From contig JAJDCA010000065.1 in assembly GCA_029261055.1 (NCBI GenBank), positions 9,581 through 73,580 of the forward strand: DNA of 64,000 bases, read 5' to 3'. Made by a program: the position numbers and the translations under genes. Under the pieces are notes generated by a model. That model ran no database searches. It saw nothing but the letters and a program-made list of their open reading frames with translations, and had not been told where the DNA came from. Positions within the stretch are counted from its first letter, which is position 1. Each line of letters opens with the position of its first letter. The stretch is from Candidatus Omnitrophota bacterium (GTDB lineage Bacteria; Omnitrophota; Gorgyraeia; Zapsychrales; Zapsychraceae). Below are positions 5,251 through 51,881 of this stretch, piece by piece.

Positions 5251-6414
5251 TCAATGCTTATGCCCCGAGCCTTTCATCGATCCCTTTGGTTCAGCGGGCT
5301 CCAACGCTCCCCCATAAGACGAGGACACAACACCTGTAATCTGACTCTGCGAATCAATAAGAAAATTTCCTTTTGTCACGACATGCTCACCTTCTTTTAA
5401 ACCTTTCAAAACCGGATAATATTTTAATAGCTGATCCGCATGACTGATCGATTCAGGCCCAATCTCCACAAGCCTTCCTTCAAATTTCTCTTTTCCCTTG
5501 ACCACCCATACAATCCTTCTCCGCCCGGTATCTAACAAAGCGCTTTTAGGAATGGAAAGCACATCTTCATTGCCGTCGGGATCAGTGTATTGACTCATGA
5601 TTTCAACATCCACATACATTTCCGGCTTAAGTTTTTCATCAGGATTTTCCACAAGAGCACGAAATCGTACAGAACGCGTTAAAGGATCTACAACAGGATT
5701 GATGGATACTACCTTACCAAAGAACTCTTCTCCCGCGAAGCTGAGTGGACGCACTTTTACATAAGAATCTTTCTTGACCCAATTCAACTCATACTCAAAA
5801 ACATTTCCATAAATCCACATTCTTTTACCAGGAAGGATTAAACTTTCTTCGACTTCCTGAGTTTGCTCCAATACATTAATTTGATCTTCATTTAAACCCA
5901 GCAACAACAATTTACGCTTCGAAGAACTAATCATTGAAGCTGCCCGGTCAATAATTTCGACAATTTCACCCTGCGTAGCCTTGTAATAGGCCTTAACCGC
6001 AGAGATAAATTCATCCTGTGCAATAGCGAGTTGTGGATCATACGCCACACGTCCTACCGCACGAATTTCTTTAAAAAGATGACGTTTAACAACTTGTTCC
6101 GTTTTAATACCTGCCAATTTTAATTCTCTCGCCTTAATTTCAACCTTACTAATAACATTTGCATCAAATTTCTCTTCTACCATTCCCCCCTTTTTAACCG
6201 GAGTTAACGGCATAAAACAAATCGGACATTTGGTATCACCCTTTGCATAATTTTCCGGTGTTACTTTAACGCTAGGGTGCATACCACAGGTATAGTGGGA
6301 CACTTCTTCCACATGCTCAGGCTGATGACTTTCTTGAGAAGATACTTGCGCAAATCCATCTACTGCAAAAGGTCCCATCAACAAAATGACCATCATAAAA
6401 TTTACTAATTTCAT
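5251..6414 (-). CDS. cusB: RND efflux membrane fusion protein (CusB-like) with an N-terminal heavy-metal-binding motif
   Basis: A signal peptide starts at the internal Met (MKLVNFMMVILLMGPFAVDGFA), with RBS GGGAGG upstream. The HYTCGMHP motif matches the metal-binding YHYTCPMHP-type motif. It also has a His-rich region and a GSGHKH C-terminus. Biotin-lipoyl-like and beta-barrel MFP regions are present. The ORF track extends the start to 6486. Confidence 0.85.
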   Translation of the reverse strand: MKLVNFMMVILLMGPFAVDGFAQVSSQESHQPEHVEEVSHYTCGMHPSVKVTPENYAKGDTKCPICFMPLTPVKKGGMVEEKFDANVISKVEIKARELKLAGIKTEQVVKRHLFKEIRAVGRVAYDPQLAIAQDEFISAVKAYYKATQGEIVEIIDRAASMISSSKRKLLLLGLNEDQINVLEQTQEVEESLILPGKRMWIYGNVFEYELNWVKKDSYVKVRPLSFAGEEFFGKVVSINPVVDPLTRSVRFRALVENPDEKLKPEMYVDVEIMSQYTDPDGNEDVLSIPKSALLDTGRRRIVWVVKGKEKFEGRLVEIGPESISHADQLLKYYPVLKGLKEGEHVVTKGNFLIDSQSQITGVVSSSYGGALEPAEPKGSMKGSGHKH

Positions 6415-19357: not shown

Positions 19358-20392
19358 TTACTTTTTCTTAATTCGTAACTGCCCGCAAGCGGCAGCAATG
19401 TCTTGTCCACGAGGACTGCGGATAGTGGCATGAATTCCAAAACTTTTTAACTGATCACGAAATTTAAACATATCTTGACGTGATGGCGTTTTATGATTGA
19501 ACTCTAAGACGGGATTATAAGGTATAAGGTTCATCTTACAAATCAACCCTTTGAATGCTTTTTTTAAAGCTTTAATTGCTTTTTCTGAGCACGTCACACC
19601 TTTAATAAGGATATATTCAAATGTAATCTGTCTACGATAATTCCTTTGATAATCTTTACAGGCTTGAATCAAATCATCGAAGGGATACTTCTTGTTAACT
19701 GGCATAAGGACATCTCTAGATTCATTATCATATCCGTGCAAAGAAATGGCTAATTCAATCTGAAGTCCTTCTCTTCCCAATTGTAAAATGTTTGGAATAA
19801 CCCCGCATGTAGAAACTGTTATCCTTCGCGCCCCGATGTTAATGCCTTTTTTATGATTAATAATCCGAATTGCTTTCATCAAATTTGAAAAATTATCCAG
19901 CGGCTCTCCCACCCCCATAAAAACAATATGCGACAATGGATTATCATGTTTTTGAGCCTCTTCTTTGACGTACAATACTTGATTCATTATTTCAGCGACC
20001 GAAAGATTTCTCTTCCAACCACCAATACCACTGGCACAGAATTTACAACCAAACTTACACCCTGCCTGAGTCGAAATACATACCGTTGTCCTACTTTTAA
20101 CGGGAATAAGCACTGTCTCAATTTTCTCATTATCATTAAGATCAAATAAAATTTTCGTTGTACCATCAGAAGAAATTTGCTTTTCTCCTACTTTTGGCTC
20201 AAAAAATACAAAATCTGATTGTAATCGCTTTTGGAGATGAGAAGAAAGATTGGTCATCTGAGAAAAATGTTTAACCTGCTTCTGATAAATCCATTCAAAT
20301 ATCTGACCTGCCCGAAACGCAGATTCCCCGATGGATTTCATGTACGCCAATAATTCTTCATAGGAAAAATTTCTAATATCAGGGAGGGACAT
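19358..20392 (-). CDS. rlmN: 23S rRNA / tRNA m2A methyltransferase, radical SAM
   Basis: Radical SAM motif CKFGCKFCASG and a C-terminal Cys. The start is set at MSLPDIRNF; the ORF track extends it to 20455, overlapping accA. Confidence 0.85.
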   Translation of the reverse strand: MSLPDIRNFSYEELLAYMKSIGESAFRAGQIFEWIYQKQVKHFSQMTNLSSHLQKRLQSDFVFFEPKVGEKQISSDGTTKILFDLNDNEKIETVLIPVKSRTTVCISTQAGCKFGCKFCASGIGGWKRNLSVAEIMNQVLYVKEEAQKHDNPLSHIVFMGVGEPLDNFSNLMKAIRIINHKKGINIGARRITVSTCGVIPNILQLGREGLQIELAISLHGYDNESRDVLMPVNKKYPFDDLIQACKDYQRNYRRQITFEYILIKGVTCSEKAIKALKKAFKGLICKMNLIPYNPVLEFNHKTPSRQDMFKFRDQLKSFGIHATIRSPRGQDIAAACGQLRIKKK

Positions 20393-20393
20393 C

Positions 20394-21347
20394 TTACTCT
20401 TCTGTGTATTCGCCAATATTACGAAAACGATTGTAACGATGATCAAGGAGCTCATCTTTGGAAAGGGCAGATAAATCTCGAATATAATCTAGAAGAACTT
20501 TTTTAAGGTGAGTTACCACCATATCCGGGTCTTTATGCACACCACCGAGAGGTTCTGGGATAATTTCATCAATAATACCAAATTTTTTAAGATATTCCCC
20601 TGTGAATTTTAATGCGGCTGCTGCCTCTGGAGCCTTCACGCTATTACGCCATAAAATAGAAGCACAACCTTCCGGGGAAATTACAGAATAATATGAATGT
20701 TGCAAAATACAAACACGATCAGCCACACCAATACCTAAAGCCCCACCGCTACCACCTTCACCAATAACTGTCATAATAATCGGGACCGTTATTCCAACCA
20801 TGTCACGTAAGTTTTCCGCAATGGCCTGAGCCTGACCTCTCTCCTCAGCCCCAACGCCGGGATACGCGCCTGGTGTGTCGACAAAAATAATAATAGGCAA
20901 TTGAAATTTCTCAGCCATTAACATTAAACGCCTCGCCTTACGATACCCTTCAGGATGTGCACATCCAAAATTCCGCATAATATTTTCTTTAGTATCTCGA
21001 CCTTTTTGATGCCCCATAACCATCACTTTTTGCCCGTTTAACTCTGCAAAACCTGCCACCAGGGCCAAATCATCGACAAACTGCCGATCACCATGCAATT
21101 CAACAAAATTAGACATCATCATACGAATATAATCAAACGTATACGGTCGGTCAGGATGTCTGGCGATTTGAACCCTCTGCCAGGCTGTAAGGTTACTGTA
21201 AATTTTGGATTTCATATGTTCCAATTTCTCAGTAAGCTTTTCCACTTCCGGCTCAATAGCAATATTTTTGTCAGAACCAAAACTTCTTAGCTCTTCAATT
21301 TTTGCTTCTAACTCTACAATAGGTTTTTCAAAATCTAGAATGGCCAT
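20394..21347 (-). CDS. accA: acetyl-CoA carboxylase carboxyltransferase alpha subunit
   Basis: 317 aa with colinear AccA motifs throughout (PGAYPGVGAEERGQAQAIA). Confidence 0.9.
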   Translation of the reverse strand: MAILDFEKPIVELEAKIEELRSFGSDKNIAIEPEVEKLTEKLEHMKSKIYSNLTAWQRVQIARHPDRPYTFDYIRMMMSNFVELHGDRQFVDDLALVAGFAELNGQKVMVMGHQKGRDTKENIMRNFGCAHPEGYRKARRLMLMAEKFQLPIIIFVDTPGAYPGVGAEERGQAQAIAENLRDMVGITVPIIMTVIGEGGSGGALGIGVADRVCILQHSYYSVISPEGCASILWRNSVKAPEAAAALKFTGEYLKKFGIIDEIIPEPLGGVHKDPDMVVTHLKKVLLDYIRDLSALSKDELLDHRYNRFRNIGEYTEE

Positions 21348-21349
21348 AA

Positions 21350-22168
21350 TTAATCCACAATTACCACTTCTGTTCCCATAGGAACTAAACTGTACAACTC
21401 TTCTACCTGTTCATTATGCATACGCACACAGCCAGCCGTAACCTGCTGACCTATCGTTTCCGGCTCAACGGTTCCATGAATACCATATCCAGGTATGTTA
21501 AATCCAAGCCAGCGGCTTCCCAACACATTACTGGGACTTTCCGGCGGCACAACGATTCCCCTATTAAACCAAACAGGATCTTTTAATTTAGTTGAAACCT
21601 TAAATGTCCCGACAGGCGTAATATTATTTTCCCCCGTTGAAACATTATATACTTTAACAACCTCTTCACCGTCTTTCAAAATAAGAATATTCTGAGATTT
21701 ATCGACATAAATATTAAACGTACCCGTCCAAATACGAAGTTTTCGGCCGATACGAATAATATTATTTTTAAGGTTATTGTTAATTTTAATAAGTTCAATG
21801 GTGGTATTATATTTCTTTGCTAGCTTTCCCAGAGTATCGCCACTCACAACATCATGCATCACAGTTTGCGACGTTGGGGTATTGGAAAAAATAATTTTAA
21901 GATTAAGTGCTTCCAGCTCTTTTTGAACAGACTCGACATGCTCATAATCAGAATATTCTGTAAGGATTTTCTGATACGCTTCTTTCGTTTTCACCACATC
22001 TCCATCCTCAATCAAAGCGGCAGCTTGAGTGTAAAGCTCTTGGGCTGTAACTTCCTGTTCCGGCGTAACCTCAACGGCTTCTTGAGTTTTTCGTCCTGAT
22101 AACCCTACCCAAATAAAAACACCTAAAAGTACGACAGCTCCACCAATCAAAATTTTTCTATTATTCAT
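21350..22168 (-). CDS. LysM domain L,D-transpeptidase (YkuD family)
   Basis: N-terminal TM/signal, a LysM motif (VVSGDTLGKLAKKYNTTIELIKINN), and the catalytic HGT...GCVRM motif. Confidence 0.8.
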   Translation of the reverse strand: MNNRKILIGGAVVLLGVFIWVGLSGRKTQEAVEVTPEQEVTAQELYTQAAALIEDGDVVKTKEAYQKILTEYSDYEHVESVQKELEALNLKIIFSNTPTSQTVMHDVVSGDTLGKLAKKYNTTIELIKINNNLKNNIIRIGRKLRIWTGTFNIYVDKSQNILILKDGEEVVKVYNVSTGENNITPVGTFKVSTKLKDPVWFNRGIVVPPESPSNVLGSRWLGFNIPGYGIHGTVEPETIGQQVTAGCVRMHNEQVEELYSLVPMGTEVVIVD

Positions 22169-22275
22169 GAACTAATCTCCTAAATTTAGAATTTCCAGCC
22201 GTATAGGAAAGTATAAAACTTTCCTATCAGCACCAAAAATCGCCTCAAGTTATCGTTGTAGGCGATTTTCTTGCC

Positions 22276-22719
22276 TCACCAAGCTCGATAAAAAATCCAT
22301 GCCAAGCCAATCCCTAAAAAACCACCGATAATAACCTGCAAAGGGGAATGCCCTATAAGCTCCATAAGACGATCTCCTTCAAGCTTTCCTTTCCAATAAA
22401 TGTCATCCAATACCTGATTAAGGATAGCCGCCTGTTGACCAGCACACCGTCGAACTCCTTGAGCATCAAACATCGTTACAATCGCAAAAACCGTAGCCAA
22501 AGCAAACACGACAGATTGAAAACCTTCCTGCAAACCGCAGCTGGTAGCCAAAGCCGTAGCTCCGGCGGCATGACTGGATGGCATCCCTCCAGTTCCAATA
22601 AACCACTTAAAATTGAATCGCTTCTCACGAAAAACCCCTAAAACAACCTTCAATCCCTGAGCAATCGCCCAAACGGACATCGTAATAAGCAATATTTTAT
22701 TCTGAAAAATCGCGTTCAT
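22276..22719 (-). CDS. divergent PAP2-family membrane protein (DUF212)
   Basis: 147 aa with TM helices and a PSSHAA phosphatase-like motif. Confidence 0.7.
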   Translation of the reverse strand: MNAIFQNKILLITMSVWAIAQGLKVVLGVFREKRFNFKWFIGTGGMPSSHAAGATALATSCGLQEGFQSVVFALATVFAIVTMFDAQGVRRCAGQQAAILNQVLDDIYWKGKLEGDRLMELIGHSPLQVIIGGFLGIGLAWIFYRAW

Positions 22720-22853
22720 TGCCCACCATTATAATCGGCGACTTTGAAAATGCAAGGGGTTTTGAAGGTAGGTATTCCATAAATTTTAATATTATATTTC
22801 GAAAAAGAATAGATCACATTTATGTGTCATTGATAAAAACCCCCCTCAGAAAT

Positions 22854-23375
22854 TTATCTAGCATGAAATCCAATAGATCCTTTAGATTTCGTAGGTGGCT
22901 CTAGCAGGCGCTTGATCGCTTCGAAAACAATTTGGAATTGGTGATCATATTTTTTCTCCATCTTTTCAATCTTCTCACGCAAGTCGCGGTGCTCGATCAT
23001 CAGTTCACGGAGTTTTGCGAAGGTGCGCATGATTTGAATATTGACCTGAATAGCTCGCTTACTGTTGAGTACACTGGAAAGCATGAGAATACCATACTCT
23101 GTAAAGGCATAGGGTAATTTGCGTGGGCCTCCCCAACTTGAAGTGCCAAAATGGCACTTCAAGTTTGCAACCTCTTGTTGTGTAAGGGGTAATAAGAAAT
23201 CTACTGGAAACCGATCTTTATTACGGCGTACCTGTCGTGTTAAATGTTTTGTTTCCACACCATAAAGCTCTGCCAAATCTTTATCTAACATGACCTTCCT
23301 CCCACGAATCAACAAAATTTTGTTTTGGATGATTTCTTCGGGAACTATTTTGGTTATTATTTTCTTTGTTGTCAT
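22854..23375 (-). CDS. ORF6N-domain (KilA-N-related) protein, paralog A
   Basis: N-terminal LIRGRKVMLDKDLAELYGVETKHLTRQVRRNKDRFPVDF matches the ORF6N domain, with a C-terminal coiled coil. It contains a perfect 13+3+13 palindrome at 23136-23164. Confidence 0.7.
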   Translation of the reverse strand: MTTKKIITKIVPEEIIQNKILLIRGRKVMLDKDLAELYGVETKHLTRQVRRNKDRFPVDFLLPLTQQEVANLKCHFGTSSWGGPRKLPYAFTEYGILMLSSVLNSKRAIQVNIQIMRTFAKLRELMIEHRDLREKIEKMEKKYDHQFQIVFEAIKRLLEPPTKSKGSIGFHAR

Positions 23376-23408
23376 TTTTTAATCCTTTCATAAATTATTT
23401 AGCATCAC

Positions 23409-24968
23409 TCACCGCCCCCAGCTTCGATCCAGACTCCGATACTGTATCGCCTCGGCGATGTGGTCGGGTTGGATGCTTGATTGACCGTCCAAATCGGCAA
23501 TCGTGCGGGCGACTTTGAGGATTTTGTCGTGGGCACGGGCGGAAAGGGTGAGTTCATCAATAGCTCTCCTGAGCAAATCTTTGCCTTCATCAGTCAAGGC
23601 ACAATGTGTCCGAATTCTTTTTTGATTTAAATGGGCATTTGTAAATATTTTCTCTGGTGGTGCCAAAAGATTAATTTCGTCTTGAGATCTTTTTTGCTGA
23701 ACCTCACGCGCCGCAACAGTTCTCTTTTTGATAGCTGCCGAAGCCTCTCCTCTATTACCGACAGTCATTAATTCCACAGACTTCAGCGAAGGTACTTCTA
23801 AATGAATATCAATACGATCAAGCAAAGGGCCGGATATTTTGGACATATAGCGTTGAATTTGATTAGGATTGCAATGACACTCTTTCGCTGGATCTGAATA
23901 CCAACCACACGGACAAGGATTCATCGTCGCAATCAGCATAAAACGTGAAGGAAAACGAACGGTTTGGCTGGCACGAGAAATAGTTACCTGATGATCTTCT
24001 AAAGGCTGCCGTAAAGATTCCAATACATTGCGGCTAAACTCAGGCAATTCATCCAAAAACAAAATCCCATTATGCGCCAACGTCACTTCACCCGGCCGGG
24101 GCATTGACCCGCCGCCAACCAAAGCCACATCGGAACTTGTATGATGCGGTGAACGAAAAGGACGCTGATGAATAATCCCACGATTAGCCTGTACCAATCC
24201 CACCACTGAATGAATTTTAGTAGTTTCCAGAGCCTCATCGAGTATCATATCAGGCAATATCGTCAACATCCGTCTGGCAAGCATGGTCTTACCGCTTCCC
24301 GGAGGGCCTATCAAAAGAACATTGTGTCCTCCAGCCGCTGCAATTTCCAAACCCCGTTTAACATGCGCCTGCCCTTTAACCTCGGAAAAATCTGTATCGT
24401 AAAAATTAACCTTATTCCACAAAGATTCCATATTAACTTTAAAAGGCTCAATAATCGTAGGGTTTTGAAAAAAATACACGACTTCGTTGAGCGTCTTCGC
24501 CGGATAAACGGAAACATTCTTAGTCACAGCCGCCTCTGCAGCATTAGCCAATGGAAGAATCATTCCTTGAAATTGATCTGTTTCAAGAGACATGGTAATA
24601 GGCAAAACCCCTTTTATGGGTTGAATACGTCCATCTAAAGAAAGCTCACCCAATAGGACATAATTTTTCAAAGGCGTAATATCAATTTGTTCACTGGCTG
24701 CAAGAATCCCCAAAGCGATCGCTAAATCAAAAGAAGGCCCTTCCTTTTTAACATCCGCCGGAGAAAGGTTCACCGTAATCCGTCCCATTGGAAAATCGTA
24801 ACCACTATTCTTAATCGCCGAACGTACCCTCTCCTTACTTTCCCGCACCGCACTGTCTGGCAAACCTACAATATGCACACATGGCAATCCCCGCGACACA
24901 TGCACCTCAATAATAATCGGATAGGCATCCAATCCGGCAATACTATAACTACATACTTTGGCTAACAT
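23409..24968 (-). CDS. comM: YifB/ComM-family Mg-chelatase-like AAA+ ATPase
   Basis: 519 aa with an N-terminal Lon-like domain, Walker A GPPGSGKT, sensor motifs, a Cys cluster CPCGWYSD..CHC and a C-terminal Mg_chelatase_C region. Confidence 0.9.
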   Translation of the reverse strand: MLAKVCSYSIAGLDAYPIIIEVHVSRGLPCVHIVGLPDSAVRESKERVRSAIKNSGYDFPMGRITVNLSPADVKKEGPSFDLAIALGILAASEQIDITPLKNYVLLGELSLDGRIQPIKGVLPITMSLETDQFQGMILPLANAAEAAVTKNVSVYPAKTLNEVVYFFQNPTIIEPFKVNMESLWNKVNFYDTDFSEVKGQAHVKRGLEIAAAGGHNVLLIGPPGSGKTMLARRMLTILPDMILDEALETTKIHSVVGLVQANRGIIHQRPFRSPHHTSSDVALVGGGSMPRPGEVTLAHNGILFLDELPEFSRNVLESLRQPLEDHQVTISRASQTVRFPSRFMLIATMNPCPCGWYSDPAKECHCNPNQIQRYMSKISGPLLDRIDIHLEVPSLKSVELMTVGNRGEASAAIKKRTVAAREVQQKRSQDEINLLAPPEKIFTNAHLNQKRIRTHCALTDEGKDLLRRAIDELTLSARAHDKILKVARTIADLDGQSSIQPDHIAEAIQYRSLDRSWGR

Positions 24969-25522
24969 TATTTGCTCTCCTTTTTAGTCCTCGGGGGATG
25001 AAATCCAATAAGTTTCTTACGCTTTACCGGGGGATCGATTAAGCATTTGATTGCATCAAAAACTACTTTGAATTGATAATCATATTTTTCCTCCATCACT
25101 TCGATCTTTCGCTTCAAATCTTTATGAGTTACCATCAACTCTCTAAACTTTACGAATGTTTTCATGATTTGAATATTGACCTGAATAGCTCGCTTGCTAT
25201 TTAAAACACTTGAACGCATCAGGATGCCGTGTTCCGTGAAGGCAGATGGAAGTTTACGCGTACCTCCCCAACTTGAAGTCACAAATTGTGACTTCAAGTT
25301 TGAAACCTCTTCCCTTGTAAGAAGAAACATAAATTCGACTGGAAACCGACCCTGATTACGTTTTACAGCTTGATTAAGTACTTTTGTATCAACACCATAA
25401 AGTATTGCTAAATCTTTATCCAACATGACTTTCTGCCCTCTTATGAATAGAATCTTAATTTCTATCATGTCTTGAGCAACAACACTTGCAAAAGTATTTT
25501 TCTCTTTAACCATACAGATCAT
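24968..25522 (-). CDS. ORF6N-domain (KilA-N-related) protein, paralog B
   Basis: FIRGQKVMLDKDLAILYGVDTKVLNQAVKRNQGRFPVEF. It shares identical 30-nt blocks with paralog A at the DNA level and contains the equivalent palindrome at 25268-25296. Confidence 0.7.
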   Translation of the reverse strand: MICMVKEKNTFASVVAQDMIEIKILFIRGQKVMLDKDLAILYGVDTKVLNQAVKRNQGRFPVEFMFLLTREEVSNLKSQFVTSSWGGTRKLPSAFTEHGILMRSSVLNSKRAIQVNIQIMKTFVKFRELMVTHKDLKRKIEVMEEKYDYQFKVVFDAIKCLIDPPVKRKKLIGFHPPRTKKESK

Positions 25523-25667
25523 TCCTTTCTCTAAATTATTGGGGAAATCAAAAAATCAGTGGGGATGTATTCTTGGGGAATTGTGCTGCTTATTGGGGAA
25601 TGTTGATGCTTAACTTATCATACTCGATAATGCGCGTCAACCTGTTCGACAATCTCAAGGTTTACTC

Positions 25668-27293
25668 TTAGTCCAAAGGCAATTCGATAATTACTTCTGT
25701 TCCGGAACCCTCTTCACTTTTCACACTGATTTTACCACGATGATTTTCCATAATTCCTTGTGCAATGGACAAACCCAACCCCGTATGCCCTTCTTTTAAA
25801 CTAAAAAAAGGATCAAATATTTTAAGAAGTTCTTTCGCATCTATACCACAGCCTGTATCTTTGAATATGATTTGAAAAAAACCACCACCTTCTTTAACTT
25901 CAATCCAAAGCTTTTCATTATGCTCCATTGCCTCAACAGAATTCATAATAATATTCAAAAAAGCCTGCCGTATCTGATTAGAATCAATATGCAGGATAAT
26001 GTTCTTATTCATTTCAAAATTCTTAGAAATTTGAATATTTCGTTCAAAAAAATTACTTTTTAACAAATCAATAGTATCATTCAATAATTTAAGAACATCT
26101 GTATCATCCATAGAAGGCGGCGCCGGATGACTGTAATCTTTAAGAAGTTCAATCAAATTATTAATTTTACTCACTTCGCTTTCATGAATTTTGGCAAATT
26201 TCTTTAAAAATTCTTTATCATCTAATTTATTGGGTAAATGATATCCATAGGCTTTCAATGATGTAAGAGGATTTTTTATACCCTCAACAATATTGGCAAT
26301 TAAAGTAGCTAATGTTTTATACCGATCCGTCTGGGACACTTCTTGAAGAAGAAGCTCATTTTCTTCGGCAATCTCAGATTGCGTGCCTTTGTAAAATAGT
26401 TTATCAACAAAATGCTGAATCCGATTCCTTACCGGAATAATCATCATTCCGATGATAAGAGCCGCTCCGATAGAACCCAATATGGTCGTGTAACCTAAAA
26501 CACCTTGCGATAGCCGTTCGAAAAAAATAACCAAAACCAAAAGCGTTAAATAGATACAGCTAATTAATAATGAATACCCAAGACTTTTTTTAACAATAAT
26601 ACTCATATTAAACAGACGATGACGAACCATCGCATATCCCATAATCACTGGATAAAACCCTATTAAGAAATTAGACCATGGATAAATATTTCCGCCAAAA
26701 TAAATAAAAAAGTTACCCTGCCCACCAATCCATCCCACAATAGAAGCAGTAATAAAATATCGCATTTGTTGATGTCTTAACCCCGTAGATTGTTGTAAAT
26801 ACTTCAACATCAAATAAAATGCATACAAAAAAAGCAGTCCATAAAATCCAACAAAAAAAGTCAACCAAAGTGGGCTTTTATGCACCGGCCAATCAACCAC
26901 ATAAAATTGACCAAATGCAAATCTGAGATCGCCTAAAAATAATTCTCTGGCAAAAAAATTGTAAAAAAGAAAAACCCCACCTAAGGTATACAAAATGGCC
27001 AACACATAATCTTTTTTTATTTGTAAAAATGAAAAAACAAAATGAACATACAGTGGTGGAATAAATATTTTGGCAATATACGCAATTTGATACCAAAAGA
27101 AGGCCTTTTCTTTAACGTTTGTTGTCGCAATTTGATACCCACAAAAACCCCAAAGAGCTACCAATAAACTAATCCAACCAAAAATCGTTGTGACCCTTTT
27201 CCCGCTACCTTTTAAAAAAACAAATATCGTCATGATTAAAGTAGAAATCAAAACACATAATGACGATATGGCAAATGGATTGAGTTGTGACAT
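25668..27293 (-). CDS. orphan sensor histidine-kinase-like protein with a 7TM-type N-terminal domain and a degenerate H-box
   Basis: About 9 N-terminal TM helices and a central coiled coil. The HisKA-like box reads VEGIKNPL where AHEIKNPL is expected. The HATPase_c N, G1, F and G2 boxes are intact (NIIMNSVEAM, DTGCGI, FDPFFS, GLGLSIAQ). No response regulator lies nearby. Confidence 0.75.
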   Translation of the reverse strand: MSQLNPFAISSLCVLISTLIMTIFVFLKGSGKRVTTIFGWISLLVALWGFCGYQIATTNVKEKAFFWYQIAYIAKIFIPPLYVHFVFSFLQIKKDYVLAILYTLGGVFLFYNFFARELFLGDLRFAFGQFYVVDWPVHKSPLWLTFFVGFYGLLFLYAFYLMLKYLQQSTGLRHQQMRYFITASIVGWIGGQGNFFIYFGGNIYPWSNFLIGFYPVIMGYAMVRHRLFNMSIIVKKSLGYSLLISCIYLTLLVLVIFFERLSQGVLGYTTILGSIGAALIIGMMIIPVRNRIQHFVDKLFYKGTQSEIAEENELLLQEVSQTDRYKTLATLIANIVEGIKNPLTSLKAYGYHLPNKLDDKEFLKKFAKIHESEVSKINNLIELLKDYSHPAPPSMDDTDVLKLLNDTIDLLKSNFFERNIQISKNFEMNKNIILHIDSNQIRQAFLNIIMNSVEAMEHNEKLWIEVKEGGGFFQIIFKDTGCGIDAKELLKIFDPFFSLKEGHTGLGLSIAQGIMENHRGKISVKSEEGSGTEVIIELPLD

Positions 27294-27381: not shown

Positions 27382-27420
27382 AATAACGGCCACTTTATTT
27401 TAAAAAAAGTGGCCGTTATT
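27382..27420 (-). terminator. rho-independent terminator (12-bp stem AATAACGGCCAC / GTGGCCGTTATT) downstream of the repeat-protein gene
   Basis: A perfect 12-bp stem with a 15-nt loop. On the minus-strand transcript it is followed by a U-run (plus-strand AAAAACAAAAAAA at 27371-27381). It probably also insulates the kinase gene. Confidence 0.6.
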
Positions 27421-27454: not shown

Positions 27455-28291
27455 TTATTTATTTTTTCTCGCACGATGCTTCGCCTTCAACCCCTTCCGC
27501 TGGTGATTAACATTTTTACGTATTTGTTGCTTAGCCTCCCGCTGAGATGAACCAGGATTATTCGCCCGATATTTATCCGCGCCACTTTTAAACTTTTCTC
27601 GCTTTCCCTGACGATTATCTCGGCGATCTTGACGTTTTTCTTGACGATTTTCACGATTCTCGCTCCGATTTCCCTGACGATCATCTCGCCGATCTTGACG
27701 TCTTTCCTGACGACCTTCTCGATTTTCACTCCGATTTCCCTGACGATTATCTTGGCGATCTTGACGTCTTTCCTGACGGCCTTCTCGATTTTCACTCCGA
27801 TTCCCCTGACGATCATCTCGGCGATCTTGACGTCTTTCCTGACGACCTTCTCGATTTTCACTCCGATTCCCCTGACGATCATCTCGGCGATCTTGACGTC
27901 TTTCCTGACGGCCTTCTCGATTTTCACTCCGATTTCCCTGACGATCATCTCGACGATCTTGACGTCTTTCCTGACGGTCATCTCGATGTTCTTGCCTTTT
28001 TTCCTGACGGTCTTCCTTATTACCTTGTTTATGCTCTTTAGCCTCTTCTTTAAAACCTTTCATCTTTTCACGAATTTCTTCAGGGGACAACCCTTGATCT
28101 TTATACTCTTCAATGGATGATTTCCTTCTGGATTGAAAATCACTCCACCACTGCTTATTTTCTTCTTGTTCCTGATCTCTATACTCTCTAAATTCTGATC
28201 TCGAATCTACCTCACCCGTAGAATCTTCTTGCGCCCAAACAGCAGGTACTAATACGATACTTAGAAGTACTACTAGTGTTAGCTTATTCAT
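27455..28291 (-). CDS. secreted highly charged tandem-repeat protein (about five 22-aa REGRQERRQDRRDDRQGNRSEN units)
   Basis: Signal peptide MNKLTLVVLLSIVLVPAVWAQ, followed by an R/Q/D/E/N-rich low-complexity body. The repeats are encoded by a 66-bp tandem array. Confidence 0.6.
   Translation of the reverse strand: MNKLTLVVLLSIVLVPAVWAQEDSTGEVDSRSEFREYRDQEQEENKQWWSDFQSRRKSSIEEYKDQGLSPEEIREKMKGFKEEAKEHKQGNKEDRQEKRQEHRDDRQERRQDRRDDRQGNRSENREGRQERRQDRRDDRQGNRSENREGRQERRQDRRDDRQGNRSENREGRQERRQDRQDNRQGNRSENREGRQERRQDRRDDRQGNRSENRENRQEKRQDRRDNRQGKREKFKSGADKYRANNPGSSQREAKQQIRKNVNHQRKGLKAKHRARKNK
27597..27990. repeat. 66-bp tandem DNA repeat, about 6 copies, inside the repeat-protein CDS
   Basis: The unit start CTCGATTTTCAC recurs at 27717, 27783, 27849 and 27915 with an exact 66-bp period. 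It generates the spurious overlapping ORFs 27487..27981(-) and 27629..28120(+). Confidence 0.8.
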
Positions 28292-28394: not shown

Positions 28395-28991
28395 TTATCT
28401 TTTTTTCCTATGCTCTCGCTGTAATTTCTTATGCGTTCTCTTTTTTTGCTTCACATCTTTTTTCCGTTCTGCTGATGATTTTTTTAACCGATTATGCTTT
28501 TGCCGAAGTTGCTGCTTTTGTTCCGGAGAAAATTTTTGCCATTTTTCCTTTTTTTGTTTTAACCTATGCCTTTCATCTGGCTTGGTTTGACGAAAACGTT
28601 TATGTTCTTTAATAATACGCTGACGCTCTTCCGGTGTTGTTTTTTTCCACCGTTCAAACTTTTTCTCAACCATCTTACGCCGATGCTTCGGCAAATCATT
28701 ATGTTTTTTCCAATTCTTTTGAATACGAGACTTCTCTTCTTTAGAAAAATTTTTAAACCGGTCATAATTCTTACGTATTTTAGATTTTTCTTCAGAACTA
28801 AGATTTTTCCATTCTTTCCATCGTTGTCGTAATGCTTCTTTTTGTTCCGGCGCTAAATTACGCCATTTCTTCTGCGCAGCCTCTTCAGAGCTCATTTCCT
28901 GGGCTTGAACTTCTAAAACAATACCCACACCCAATAAATTTGCCGTTAGTAAACAGCTTAAAATAATTACCAAATATTTCTTATTATTCAT
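28395..28991 (-). CDS. secreted, extremely basic repeat protein, DUF3106-like
   Basis: A signal/TM peptide, then repeated W-x-x-L-(S/A)-P-E-(Q/E)-K-x-x-(L/I)-R-x-(R/K/N)-(W/Y) units rich in K and R. An 8-nt overlap with the upstream gene indicates translational coupling within the sigma operon. Confidence 0.55.
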   Translation of the reverse strand: MNNKKYLVIILSCLLTANLLGVGIVLEVQAQEMSSEEAAQKKWRNLAPEQKEALRQRWKEWKNLSSEEKSKIRKNYDRFKNFSKEEKSRIQKNWKKHNDLPKHRRKMVEKKFERWKKTTPEERQRIIKEHKRFRQTKPDERHRLKQKKEKWQKFSPEQKQQLRQKHNRLKKSSAERKKDVKQKKRTHKKLQREHRKKR

Positions 28992-51635: not shown

Positions 51636-51881
51636 TTGACCCCCAAAATTTTTCTTAAAACGTTACGAGGTGTTGCGATGCTTCTACGCAACACCGACAA
51701 AAACGCAACACCACCCATTTCAACAATTATTTTCTTCACATCTTTTCCCATACCTAATCCCCACTAATTTGATTCTTCTCTTTAAATTCTCTTTTAAAAT
51801 TTGCAAGGGAGGTGGCAATTTGCCTCCACCCTTTTAATAATTTATTTTTATTGTCCATCTTTAATTACCCCTATTTACACC

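What the first reader, a model, noticed from the sequence alone, without database searches (positions are those of the whole stretch)
22854..25667. comM (YifB-type AAA+ ATPase) is flanked by two directly repeated ORF6N genes sharing identical nucleotide blocks
The 173-aa and 184-aa ORF6N-domain genes sit immediately 3' and 5' of comM, on the same strand. They share perfect 30-nt blocks (23037-23066 equals 25166-25195) and many shorter identical runs. So comM lies between about 0.5-kb direct repeats, which are a substrate for recombinational excision or gene conversion. comM is a known island-integration hotspot in other bacteria. ORF6N proteins are typically phage or mobile-element associated. 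This three-gene module may be a regulated or mobile unit rather than a housekeeping comM.
Basis: partly seen in the sequence, partly recalled or inferred. Interest (0 to 1): 0.6.

Follow-up and report, generated by a model that had tools for sequence, protein, structure and literature searches.

The report
comM bracketed by palindrome-bearing ORF6N genes
An ordinary, resident comM (DNA-recombination helicase) gene has picked up two old, divergent copies of a very widespread small DNA-binding gene. It is not a jumping unit, but every gene of that family turns out to carry a conserved DNA palindrome inside its coding sequence that seems not to have been described.

Summary
The gene layout is real. 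ORF6N(184 aa)–comM(519 aa)–ORF6N(173 aa) lie on the minus strand, packed like an operon.

The "direct repeats" are old paralogs: 65% aa identity, about 69% nt, 50% at third codon positions. The quoted 30-nt equality is off by 6 nt. The true shared block is 33 nt (23028-23060 = 25163-25195).

comM is the native YifB/ComM ortholog. In 13 relatives it sits beside the same rlmN–accA–YkuD–DUF212 block. In 79 of 80 metagenomic comM relatives it has no ORF6N next to it.

ORF6N genes come and go at either end of comM. They are solitary chromosomal genes of a huge cross-phylum family (PADLOC candidate defence PDC-S05). comM was their only recurrent neighbour (7 of 80 loci).

In this genome the block (about 22,760-25,645), including the ancestral comM promoter, is inverted relative to all relatives. 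No recombinase, flanking inverted repeats or near-identical repeats were found, so a mobile or excisable unit is not supported.

New observation: each ORF6N gene holds a 27-31-nt near-perfect palindrome (25270-25300; 23135-23165). It is conserved in about 95% of homologues, with strong covariation that even changes the encoded amino acids. Copies also occur just upstream of many family genes. It is most likely a DNA-level cis site for the family's own protein.

The parts
25612..25640 (-). Sigma-70-type promoter with -35 TTGACG (25635-25640), a 17-nt spacer and an extended -10 TGATAAGTT (25612-25620). It is the counterpart of the conserved comM promoter of relatives and now lies upstream of ORF6N-184.
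   Evidence: The motif TTGACG-N17-TGnTAnnnT is conserved upstream of comM in L002, L083, L085, L086, L087 and L130, and aligns with this stretch. Promoter function is inferred.
25539..25600 (-). C-rich 5' leader with three TTCCCCAA repeats plus TCCCCAC. Similar C-rich leaders precede comM in relatives.
   Evidence: (family D6). Function unknown.
24968..25522 (-). ORF6N-184, a KilA-N-like DNA-binding domain followed by long C-terminal helices. It was inserted between the comM promoter and comM. Its stop overlaps the comM start (TAATG, 24966-24970). The real start is probably M4 (25513), giving 181 aa as in the public protein P0001.
   Evidence: Pfam ORF6N E 7.5e-33. PADLOC PDC-S05 E 1.5e-55. 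AF2 model with pLDDT 70. BFVD matches to KilA-N/antirepressor proteins at E 3e-6. P0001 is 181 aa and 100% identical. Shine-Dalgarno at 25523-25530.
25270..25300 (.). Perfect 31-nt palindrome AACTTGAAGTCACAA-T-TTGTGACTTCAAGTT inside ORF6N-184 (codons N75-S84).
   Evidence: (I12). It folds as a 14-bp hairpin: -14.1 kcal/mol as DNA (z -6.5) and -19.5 as RNA.
23409..24968 (-). comM / yifB, an intact 519-aa AAA+ Mg-chelatase-like ATPase. It is the native ortholog.
   Evidence: TIGR00368 at 657 bits, Pfam and conserved synteny. The function as a branch-migration helicase of natural transformation is taken from PMC6158740 and inferred by homology.
22854..23375 (-). ORF6N-173, the paralog downstream of comM. 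Its closest relatives are comM-linked copies in L002 (76% aa), L025 (73%) and L003.
23135..23165 (.). Palindrome AACTTGAAGTGCCA-TTT-TGGCACTTCAAGTT inside ORF6N-173, at the homologous codons. The inner arm differs from the copy in ORF6N-184 by compensating changes.
   Evidence: (I15).
23028..23060 (.). 33-nt block identical to 25163-25195 (codons KRAIQVNIQIM). It may be a short gene-conversion tract.
25163..25195 (.). Second copy of the 33-nt identical block.
22728..22755 (-). Promoter-like element for DUF212 (TTGCAT ... TATAAT). It is conserved in relatives and remains next to DUF212, marking the left edge of the inverted block.
   Evidence: Function inferred.
22760..25645 (.). Block that is inverted relative to 13 related genomes. 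It contains the promoter, leader, ORF6N-184, comM, ORF6N-173 and about 95 nt of 3' tail. The edges are approximate.
   Evidence: Gene orientations and the split of the divergent promoter cassette.

Best explanation
SHOWN
- This is the resident comM operon of an Omnitrophota-like genome.
- It has acquired two ancient, divergent members of a very large, cross-phylum family of solitary ORF6N (KilA-N-like) genes.
- One copy sits between the comM promoter and comM and appears translationally coupled to comM: its stop overlaps the comM start (TAATG). The other sits just after comM.
- The promoter-to-tail block has undergone one local inversion relative to relatives.
- The block is not a mobile or excisable element. 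The shared nucleotide runs reflect protein conservation, one nucleotide-level constraint (the palindrome) and possibly a 33-nt conversion tract.
- Every ORF6N gene carries, at the same codons, a 27-31-bp palindrome. Its two arms co-vary, and synonymous codon choice is extreme only at those codons. In three divergent paralogs the palindrome is read in another frame. Similar palindromes lie 6-170 nt upstream of many family genes.

INFERRED
- The palindrome is a DNA-level cis site recognised by ORF6N proteins, which have a DNA-binding N-domain and long C-terminal helices suited to dimerisation. It would give autogenous control, either as a duplex operator or as an extruded hairpin/cruciform.
- In this operon two such sites bracket comM. 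The first lies in the transcribed path from the comM promoter, so ORF6N occupancy would also throttle comM expression.
- The proteins belong to PADLOC candidate defence family PDC-S05, so an anti-phage role is plausible but untested here.

CONFIDENCE
- About 0.85 for the shown part: native comM, accessory ORF6N paralogs, not mobile, and the palindrome is real and under constraint.
- About 0.4 for the inferred part: the palindrome is a cis site bound by the ORF6N protein.
For: Layout and families.

Family size and spread: at least 8000 hits at E<1e-10, with 55-74% identity across Omnitrophota, Nitrospirota, Planctomycetota, Clostridia, Bacteroidota, CPR and others.

Neighbours: 206 Pfam families among 141 flanking genes, and only comM recurs (7).

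comM context:
- comM has no adjacent ORF6N in 79 of 80 relatives.

Palindrome:
- 88 of 100 genes have at least 12 of 15 pairs at the aligned codons.
- 95 of 99 have at least 11 of 13 pairs, against 14 of 297 in codon-order shuffles.
- Cells paired are 91.8% against 73.5% in shuffles. Double-change cells number 235 against 65. The covariation score is 0.475 against 0.145 (0 of 500 shuffles), and slid controls reach at most 0.106.
- Codon skew is confined to codons 75-84: TTG 89%, CAA 98%, TTT 100%, GTG 93%.
- The palindrome centre is at codon position 1 in 90 genes and position 2 in 3.
- In 1.37 Mb, 97 copies are inside ORF6N coding sequence and 24 within 170 nt upstream, with about 0.7 expected by chance.
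- It is present in distant ORF6N genes of Bacteroides, Sulfuricurvum, Legionella and Butyrivibrio plasmids, and in 74 of 80 IMG/VR copies.
- Mismatches show no G·U bias: G·T 14, A·C 23, other 40.

Fold: KilA-N/antirepressor-like.

PDC-S05: a tested representative was active against T7, T5 and T4 (bioRxiv 10.1101/2024.09.26.614923).
Against: - No binding data exist.
- The window itself has no upstream palindromes.
- Arm positions ±4, 5, 7 and 8 vary freely yet stay complementary. Upstream and internal copies in one locus often differ there. That fits a hairpin, or mutational self-correction, better than a classical duplex operator.
- The palindrome-encoded residues fall in a helix end plus a low-confidence loop of the model.
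- The tested PDC-S05 representative was described as RhuM-domain, not this short architecture.
- Neighbours are housekeeping genes, not defence islands.
- The ORF6N-comM association rests on few phylogenetically independent events.
Confidence: 0.6

Rival explanations
1. One reading: the two ORF6N genes are 0.5-kb direct repeats that make comM an excisable or mobile three-gene unit.
For: - The copies are directly oriented, with one 33-nt and one 17-nt identical run.
- The block is inverted relative to relatives.
- A Logan contig spans exactly the inter-repeat segment, with a 27-nt terminal overlap.
Against: - Nucleotide identity is 69%, and 50% at third codon positions.
- From established knowledge, RecA recombination needs roughly 25 nt or more of identity and falls steeply with divergence.
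- Direct repeats give deletion, not inversion.
- comM is in conserved synteny.
- No recombinase or terminal repeats were found.
- The contig ends are where a k-mer assembler must break.
Confidence: 0.04
2. The palindrome acts as an RNA hairpin in the mRNA (5' UTR copies plus an internal copy), controlling stability, RNase III processing or translation.
For: - Stable hairpins of -19.5 and -21.4 kcal/mol.
- Complementarity is kept at positions whose sequence varies.
- Upstream copies abut the Shine-Dalgarno sequence in L002, L086 and L027.
Against: - No tolerance of G·U pairs: G·T 14 against A·C 23 of 77 mismatches, as expected for random damage.
- No Rfam match.
- The core CA...TG and several arm positions are sequence-conserved.
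Confidence: 0.12
3. The arm-to-arm covariation is mutational, not selected. Intrastrand template switching at a quasi-palindrome repeatedly copies one arm from the other, so a palindrome that once arose perpetuates itself. Only the core is functional, or nothing is.
For: - Symmetric double changes occur without G·T intermediates.
- The amino acids at the variable positions are permissive: S/C/F and V/A/G.
- Quasi-palindrome correction is an established mutational mechanism (own knowledge).
Against: - The palindrome is kept at the same place in about 95% of genes across many phyla, and in a different reading frame in three paralogs.
- Non-coding copies share the same core and sit upstream of family genes.
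- Extreme codon skew implies long-term constraint.
Confidence: 0.15
4. The ORF6N proteins are dedicated partners or regulators of ComM (for example targeting the helicase to hairpin or branched DNA), not independent defence or selfish genes.
For: - comM is the only recurrent neighbour (7 of 80 loci).
- The genes are tightly packed or overlapping with comM in several phyla.
- comM-linked copies partly cluster in a tree.
Against: - 79 of 80 comM relatives, including ones 64-65% identical and in the same synteny, lack ORF6N.
- More than 90% of ORF6N genes are next to unrelated housekeeping genes.
- Copy number and side vary.
Confidence: 0.15
5. The palindromes are crossover sites of a site-specific recombination system that shuffles, duplicates or inverts ORF6N cassettes and what lies between them.
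For: - Tandem arrays of 2-3 ORF6N genes are common.
- Some genes carry two tandem palindromes (L021, L074, L162).
- The outer arms are identical in the two window copies.
Against: - No recombinase is linked.
- A 1-3-nt centre is incompatible with the 6-8-bp crossover regions of tyrosine recombinases (own knowledge).
- The inversion breakpoints lie outside both ORF6N genes.
Confidence: 0.04

Closest known systems
PADLOC phage-defence candidate PDC-S05 (ORF6N / RhuM-like single-gene candidate)
   Same: Both window proteins match model PDLC04856 over its full length (E about 1e-55). They are single genes without partners.
   Different: The representative reported as protective against T7, T5 and T4 carried a Virulence_RhuM domain. 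The window proteins have only ORF6N plus a helical tail. Their neighbours are housekeeping genes rather than defence islands.
Phage KilA-N / antirepressor / Rha-type N-terminal DNA-binding domains
   Same: Pfam ORF6N, with a weak Phage_pRha match. The AF2 model matches BFVD KilA-N and antirepressor proteins (E 3e-6 to 1e-3).
   Different: This clade is almost absent from sequenced phages (4 of 50,697 records). It is chromosomal and lacks antirepressor C-domains.
Intragenic auxiliary operators (lac O2 inside lacZ, gal OI inside galE)
   Same: A palindromic site inside a coding sequence, with related sites near the promoter in many family members. Looping or roadblock logic would apply.
   Different: Here the site lies inside the putative regulator's own gene. 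It is conserved across phyla with arm covariation that dictates the amino acids. It is often the only copy. Binding is unproven.
comM-targeting genomic islands (AbaR/Tn6022-type in Acinetobacter)
   Same: Accessory DNA is associated with comM.
   Different: Those elements interrupt comM and carry transposition genes (PMC11441513). Here comM is intact and the additions are single 0.5-kb genes at its ends.
REP elements with RAYT genes; other folded-DNA sites (attC, IS200/IS605 ends)
   Same: Short hairpin-forming palindromes are associated with one particular gene family, sometimes in small arrays next to it (L047, L080).
   Different: There is no HUH or tyrosine enzyme. The palindromes are not dispersed through the genome: in the 64-kb window the family-type palindrome occurs only in the two ORF6N genes. 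The main copy is inside the coding sequence.

Membership tests
Pfam ORF6N (PF10543) | Significant match to the domain model above the gathering score | tested here: met
   109.2 and 113.1 bits against a cutoff of 27.8, covering positions 1-86 of the 86-position model.
YifB/ComM family (TIGR00368) | Full-length match above cutoff, with the N-terminal ChlI/Lon-like, AAA+ and C-terminal domains | tested here: met
   656.7 bits against a cutoff of 362.4, residues 6-511. Pfam ChlI, Mg_chelatase and Mg_chelatase_C all match.
YifB/ComM family (TIGR00368) | Branch-migration helicase activity in natural transformation | not testable with these tools
   Inferred from PMC6158740. Competence in this organism is unknown.
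PADLOC PDC-S05 | HMM match to a PDC-S05 model | tested here: met
   PDLC04856 at E 1.5e-55 and 5.2e-55 over the full length.
PADLOC PDC-S05 | Confers phage resistance | not testable with these tools
   Only a RhuM-type representative was tested, by others.
PADLOC PDC-S05 | Resides in defence islands or next to R-M genes | tested here: not met
   Window neighbours are comM, DUF212 and a histidine kinase. Across 80 loci the neighbours are mostly housekeeping genes, with ResIII in 2 and DUF1016 in 2.
Mobile element bounded by direct repeats (composite element or excisable island) | Near-identical terminal repeats | tested here: not met
   69% nucleotide identity; the longest exact run is 33 nt.
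Mobile element bounded by direct repeats (composite element or excisable island) | Linked integrase, transposase or recombinase | tested here: not met
   No such ORF lies between DUF212 and the histidine kinase.
Mobile element bounded by direct repeats (composite element or excisable island) | Cargo found at different chromosomal sites, or absent from the site in relatives | tested here: not met
   comM is at the same DUF212-proximal site in 13 relatives.
comM-targeting islands (AbaR-type) | Insertion interrupts the comM reading frame | tested here: not met
   The comM ORF is intact at 519 aa.
Site-specific invertible segment | Inverted repeats at both borders plus an invertase | tested here: not met
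   No inverted repeats pair 22,720-22,860 with 25,520-25,700. No recombinase gene is present.
Described structured RNA family (Rfam 15) | Covariance-model match | tested here: not met
   The only hit is a chance snoRNA match at E 1.3. Nothing matches at the palindromes.
Autoregulatory operator of a dimeric DNA-binding protein | Two-fold symmetric site with conserved half-site bases | tested here: met
   Positions ±2, 3, 6 and 9-12 are at least 85% conserved and symmetric.
Autoregulatory operator of a dimeric DNA-binding protein | Site located at the gene's own promoter or 5' region | tested here: inconclusive
   24 upstream copies in 16 of about 85 loci, but none upstream of either window gene.
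Autoregulatory operator of a dimeric DNA-binding protein | Specific binding by the gene product | not testable with these tools
   Needs EMSA, footprinting or ChIP.

The most novel reading that the evidence does not exclude
ORF6N-family genes are self-marked. A DNA hairpin or cruciform, formed by the very codons that encode part of the protein's DNA-binding domain, is the protein's own cis target. DNA symmetry therefore dictates the protein sequence (mirrored residue pairs S/V, S/A, C/G, F/G). Copies placed around a host gene, here comM, put that gene under ORF6N control. This would be a previously unrecognised class of self-recognising regulatory or defence module, spread across most bacterial phyla.
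Probability: 0.2. Interest if true: 0.8.

Novelty: new variant of a known kind. Interest (0 to 1): 0.55.

Why it matters
For the locus itself, the result is sobering. It is a native comM operon decorated with two accessory genes, not a mobile comM cassette.

The value lies in the family-wide by-product. A huge, uncharacterised gene family, which PADLOC annotates as candidate defence system PDC-S05, carries a nucleotide-level element inside its coding sequence. That element is conserved across phyla, overrides amino-acid identity, and recurs upstream of the genes.

This gives a concrete, cheap experimental handle (a 31-bp site) on what these proteins bind and how they are controlled. It is a clean natural example of DNA-structure constraints shaping a protein sequence. 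It also warns that such genes break short-read assemblies and can mimic circles.

Tried and rejected
- Rfam scan of 22,000-26,500 at E≤5 found nothing at the palindromes.
- Literature searches for ORF6N, KilA-N plus palindrome, and the palindrome sequence itself found no description. The single sequence hit is a false CRISPR repeat in a genome report.
- I looked for further copies of either palindrome elsewhere in the 64-kb window, as a possible regulon, and found none. The hit at 51,819 is a terminator.
- I looked for inverted repeats at the inversion borders and found none.
- By eye, I asked whether upstream and internal palindromes of one gene share the variable core. They match in roughly 40% of cases, which is not clearly above chance. 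I therefore did not claim paralog-specific operator codes.
- A G·U enrichment test for an RNA structure was negative.
- NCBIfam has no model for the ORF6N proteins.
- A phage origin of this clade is not supported by INPHARED, although 135 IMG/VR contigs carry relatives.
Full report
**Observation**

The minus strand carries three tightly packed ORFs:
- 25522..24968 (184 aa)
- 24968..23409 (519 aa)
- 23375..22854 (173 aa)

Both small proteins match Pfam ORF6N over the whole model (E 7.5e-33 and 1.3e-31). The middle one has the full ChlI / Mg_chelatase / Mg_chelatase_C architecture and matches TIGR00368 (YifB family) at 657 bits against a cutoff of 362.

The two ORF6N genes are collinear, with a register offset of 2135 nt. 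They are the only copies in the window.

The true perfect block is 33 nt, 23028-23060 = 25163-25195, followed by shared runs of 17, 13, 12, 12 and 11 nt.

The paralogs are old:
- 65% amino-acid identity
- 66 of 168 codons identical
- 69% nucleotide identity overall, 50% at third codon positions

The run of 11 identical codons is unlikely by chance (P about 0.002-0.007). Those codons are not constrained family-wide. A short conversion tract is therefore possible. It is the only hint of exchange between the copies.

**What the ORF6N genes are**

The family is enormous. At least 8000 database proteins match at E<1e-10. Many are 65-74% identical to p184 and come from other phyla. p184's own neighbour p173 is only 65% identical, so the two copies are not a recent duplication.

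A scan of one genome per species returned 577 relatives. The best 80 come from Omnitrophota, Nitrospirota, Planctomycetota, Thermodesulfobacteriota, Clostridia, Bacteroidota, Chloroflexota, Saccharibacteria, Verrucomicrobiota, Acidobacteriota, Gammaproteobacteria and others.

Their 141 immediate neighbours fall into 206 Pfam families, mostly housekeeping. Integrases appear twice.

The clade is rare on plasmids (25 of 72,556 records) and in sequenced phages (4 of 50,697). About 135 IMG/VR contigs carry relatives.

Both window proteins match PADLOC candidate defence family PDC-S05 over its full length (E about 1e-55). A cold-seep study reports that one PDC-S05 representative, described as RhuM-domain, lowered plating of T7 and T5 about 1000-fold in E. 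coli B (10.1101/2024.09.26.614923). RhuM-like genes were earlier noted in R-M/PrrC loci (PMC3710099).

An AlphaFold model (pLDDT 70) shows an α/β N-domain (residues 17-106) followed by long helices at 110-146 and 149-162. It matches phage KilA-N and antirepressor models in BFVD (E 3e-6 to 1e-3). Against solved structures it gives only weak winged-helix hits.

**Is comM special here?**

Thirteen related loci (L002, L007, L025, L058, L082-L087, L091, L130, L133) share the order rlmN(-) accA(-) YkuD(-) DUF212(-), followed by a divergently transcribed comM(+). So comM is the native gene at its conserved place.

Among the 80 closest comM relatives in metagenomes, only one (L086) has an ORF6N next to it. 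Loci with 64-65% identical comM and the same synteny have none.

Seen from the other side, comM is the only recurrent neighbour of ORF6N genes. It is adjacent in 7 of 80 loci:
- Downstream of comM in L002, L025, L027, L058 and L019
- Two or three tandem copies upstream of comM in L003 and L007

In a neighbour-joining tree, p173 clusters with the comM-linked copies of L002, L003 and L007, and p184 lies nearby. Other comM-linked copies are scattered.

So the linkage is partly inherited within this lineage and partly re-acquired. It is never obligatory.

**The rearrangement**

In the window, comM and both ORF6N genes are on the same strand as DUF212. This is the opposite of all 13 relatives.

Relatives carry a conserved promoter upstream of comM (TTGACG-N17-TGnTAnnnT), next to a second conserved element that reads as a TTGC(T/A)T...TATAAT promoter for DUF212. 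L086, whose DUF212 is the closest (79%), has these in the order DUF212-promoter then comM-promoter.

In the window the DUF212 element stays beside DUF212 (22728-22755). The comM-type promoter lies about 2.9 kb away, in reverse orientation, directly upstream of ORF6N-184 (25612-25640). A C-rich leader like those of relatives follows it.

The simplest reading is a single inversion of about 22,760-25,645. That block carries the promoter, leader, ORF6N-184, comM, ORF6N-173 and a short tail.

Several points argue that this was a one-off rearrangement and not the signature of a mobile element:
- The breakpoints lie outside both ORF6N genes.
- No inverted repeats or recombinase genes flank the block.
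- The right-hand neighbour, a histidine kinase, is not syntenic with any relative.

Direct repeats would in any case give deletion rather than inversion. At 69% identity they are poor substrates. The requirement for roughly 25 nt or more of identity and low divergence is from established knowledge of RecA-dependent recombination.

The only contig in public assemblies that encodes this exact comM (L001, Logan, 2162 nt) equals window 23031-25192. It ends inside the shared 33-nt block with a 27-nt terminal overlap. This is an assembly break that could be mistaken for a circle.

**An unexpected feature: the palindrome**

Each ORF6N gene contains a palindrome at the homologous codons:
- AACTTGAAGTCACAA-T-TTGTGACTTCAAGTT (25270-25300, perfect)
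- AACTTGAAGTGCCA-TTT-TGGCACTTCAAGTT (23135-23165)

Their inner arms differ by compensating changes.

These are the two strongest odd palindromes in the 64-kb window. They fold as 14-bp hairpins.

The feature is a hallmark of the family:
- 88 of 100 homologous genes have at least 12 of 15 Watson-Crick pairs at the aligned position.
- 95 of 99 have at least 11 of 13, a score reached by 14 of 297 codon-order shuffles, which mostly score 9-10.

On an ungapped alignment of 92 distinct sites:

| Measure | Observed | Shuffled |
|---|---|---|
| Cells paired | 91.8% | 73.5% |
| Cells with changes on both sides | 235 | 65 |
| Covariation score | 0.475 | 0.145 (0 of 500 shuffles reach the observed value) |

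Partner-slid controls score at most 0.106. Twelve of 15 pairs show double-sided changes.

The compensations change the protein in mirrored fashion: NLK..TSS, NWK..TSN, SLR..TLK, DVV..IPL, SMR..TAS, and inner pairs S/V, S/A, C/G and F/G.

Synonymous codon choice is extreme only in these ten codons: Leu TTG 89%, Gln CAA 98%, Phe TTT 100%, Val GTG 93%, Ser TCA 87%, Ser AGT 83%. Elsewhere the top codon reaches 25-60%.

In three divergent paralogs the same kind of palindrome is read in another frame and encodes E-L-V-A-I-C-N-R-F.

It is present in much more distant ORF6N genes, at 36-50% identity and including long RhuM-like architectures, on Bacteroides, Sulfuricurvum, Legionella and Butyrivibrio plasmids. 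It is also present in 74 of 80 viral-contig copies. Some genes carry two tandem copies (L021, L074, L162).

The peptide patterns used to fetch the loci lie outside the palindrome. The sample is therefore not biased towards it.

**Non-coding copies**

I scanned 1.37 Mb of fetched loci for the motif (13-nt arms with at least 11 pairs, core CA...TG). It found 133 sites against about 0.7 expected by chance:
- 97 inside ORF6N coding sequence
- 24 lying 6-170 nt upstream of an ORF6N start, in 16 loci
- 12 elsewhere

The upstream copies often come as two or three in a row (L047, L080, L010, L061, L074). Some abut the Shine-Dalgarno sequence at comM-ORF6N junctions (L002, L086, L027). Many IMG/VR copies have one at about -55.

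The window has none outside the two genes.

**What the palindrome is likely to be**

Mismatches show no preference for G·U: G·T 14, A·C 23 and other 40 of 1092 cells. This is what random damage predicts, and it argues against a sense-strand RNA structure. Rfam has no match.

Positions ±2, 3, 6 and 9-12 are conserved in sequence, as expected for a site read by a symmetric protein. Positions ±4, 5, 7 and 8 vary freely yet remain complementary, and they differ between sites within one locus. That is more typical of selection for intrastrand pairing (hairpin or cruciform), or of arm-to-arm correction by template switching.

My best-supported reading (inferred, not shown) is a DNA-level cis site recognised by ORF6N proteins themselves, giving autogenous control.

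In this operon the first site lies in the path from the comM promoter to comM. The two sites, 2135 bp apart, bracket comM. ORF6N occupancy would therefore be expected to modulate comM expression as well.

The closest precedents for operators inside coding sequence are lac O2 and gal OI (own knowledge). The differences are that this site sits in the putative regulator's own gene, is conserved across phyla, and dictates the amino acids.

**Verdict**

The layout is real. The coordinates of the identical block need correction.

The mobile or excisable reading is not supported. The 'regulated unit' reading is plausible. Variable ORF6N occupancy and a local inversion are real structural variants.

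The locus is a new instance of a known kind: a PDC-S05/ORF6N accessory gene beside a housekeeping gene.

The family-wide coding palindrome appears undescribed in the literature and libraries I could search. It is what lifts the interest of this finding.

Noticed in passing
L047:5870-6000; L080:5860-5965; L010:1078-1150; L061:5917-5970; L062:4139-4200 and 5929-5990: Small arrays of 2-3 family-type palindromes, spaced 27-82 nt apart, lie in the non-coding DNA just upstream of ORF6N genes. They include a second class with arms CTGGTC(A/G)CAA.
   Followed up: partly
L074:1886-2473; L021:6004-6579; L162:3989-4540: Some ORF6N genes contain two tandem copies of the palindrome-encoded segment (for example LLRSQFVISK ... 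ILKSQIVISS). One copy is often degenerate and the other perfect.
   Followed up: partly
L002:4255-4330 versus L086:780-860 (also L083, L085, L087, L130): The conserved comM-promoter element and the DUF212-promoter-like element occur in the order A-B in most relatives but B-A in L086 and, by inference, in the window's ancestor. The orientation of each element is the same, so this is a permutation and not an inversion. Unexplained.
   Followed up: partly
window 25539-25600: The operon leader holds three direct repeats of (A)TTCCCCAA(T/G)AA plus TCCCCAC. comM leaders of relatives are similarly rich in TCCCC words. This may be a conserved regulatory leader.
   Followed up: partly
window 25511-25530: The Shine-Dalgarno AGAAAGGA abuts the first ATG of the 184-aa ORF. 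The public protein P0001 starts at the second Met (181 aa), which has better spacing. The real product is probably 181 aa.
   Followed up: partly
L001 (= window 23031-25192): The only public contig encoding this exact comM is a 2162-nt Logan contig. Its ends fall inside the 33-nt shared block and overlap by 27 nt. It is a pseudo-circle produced by k-mer assembly.
   Followed up: yes
window 27455-28291 (-): A 278-aa secreted-looking protein is made of about 8 near-identical tandem repeats (RQERRQDRRDDRQGNRSENREG). Local GC rises to 0.48. All three reading frames on both strands are open across it.
   Followed up: no
window 28395-28991 (-): A 198-aa Lys/Arg/Glu-rich protein has a signal-like N-terminus and repeated W(K/R)..(S/T)PE(E/Q)(K/R) motifs. 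It is adjacent to the repeat protein above.
   Followed up: no
window 20394-20455: The mechanical ORFs for rlmN (19358-20455) and accA (20394-21347) overlap by 62 nt on the minus strand. The rlmN start is probably over-extended.
   Followed up: no
window 27388-27414 and 51806-51832: Strong hairpins (GGCCACTTT...AAAGTGGCC and GGGAGGTGGCAATTTGCCTCCACCC followed by TTTT) look like intrinsic terminators. They are unrelated to the ORF6N palindrome despite passing the loose scan.
   Followed up: partly
L025:6001-6519: The comM-linked ORF6N copy in this Omnitrophota contig has an in-frame stop (at about 6444) before the end of the tblastn match. It may be a pseudogene or a sequencing error.
   Followed up: no
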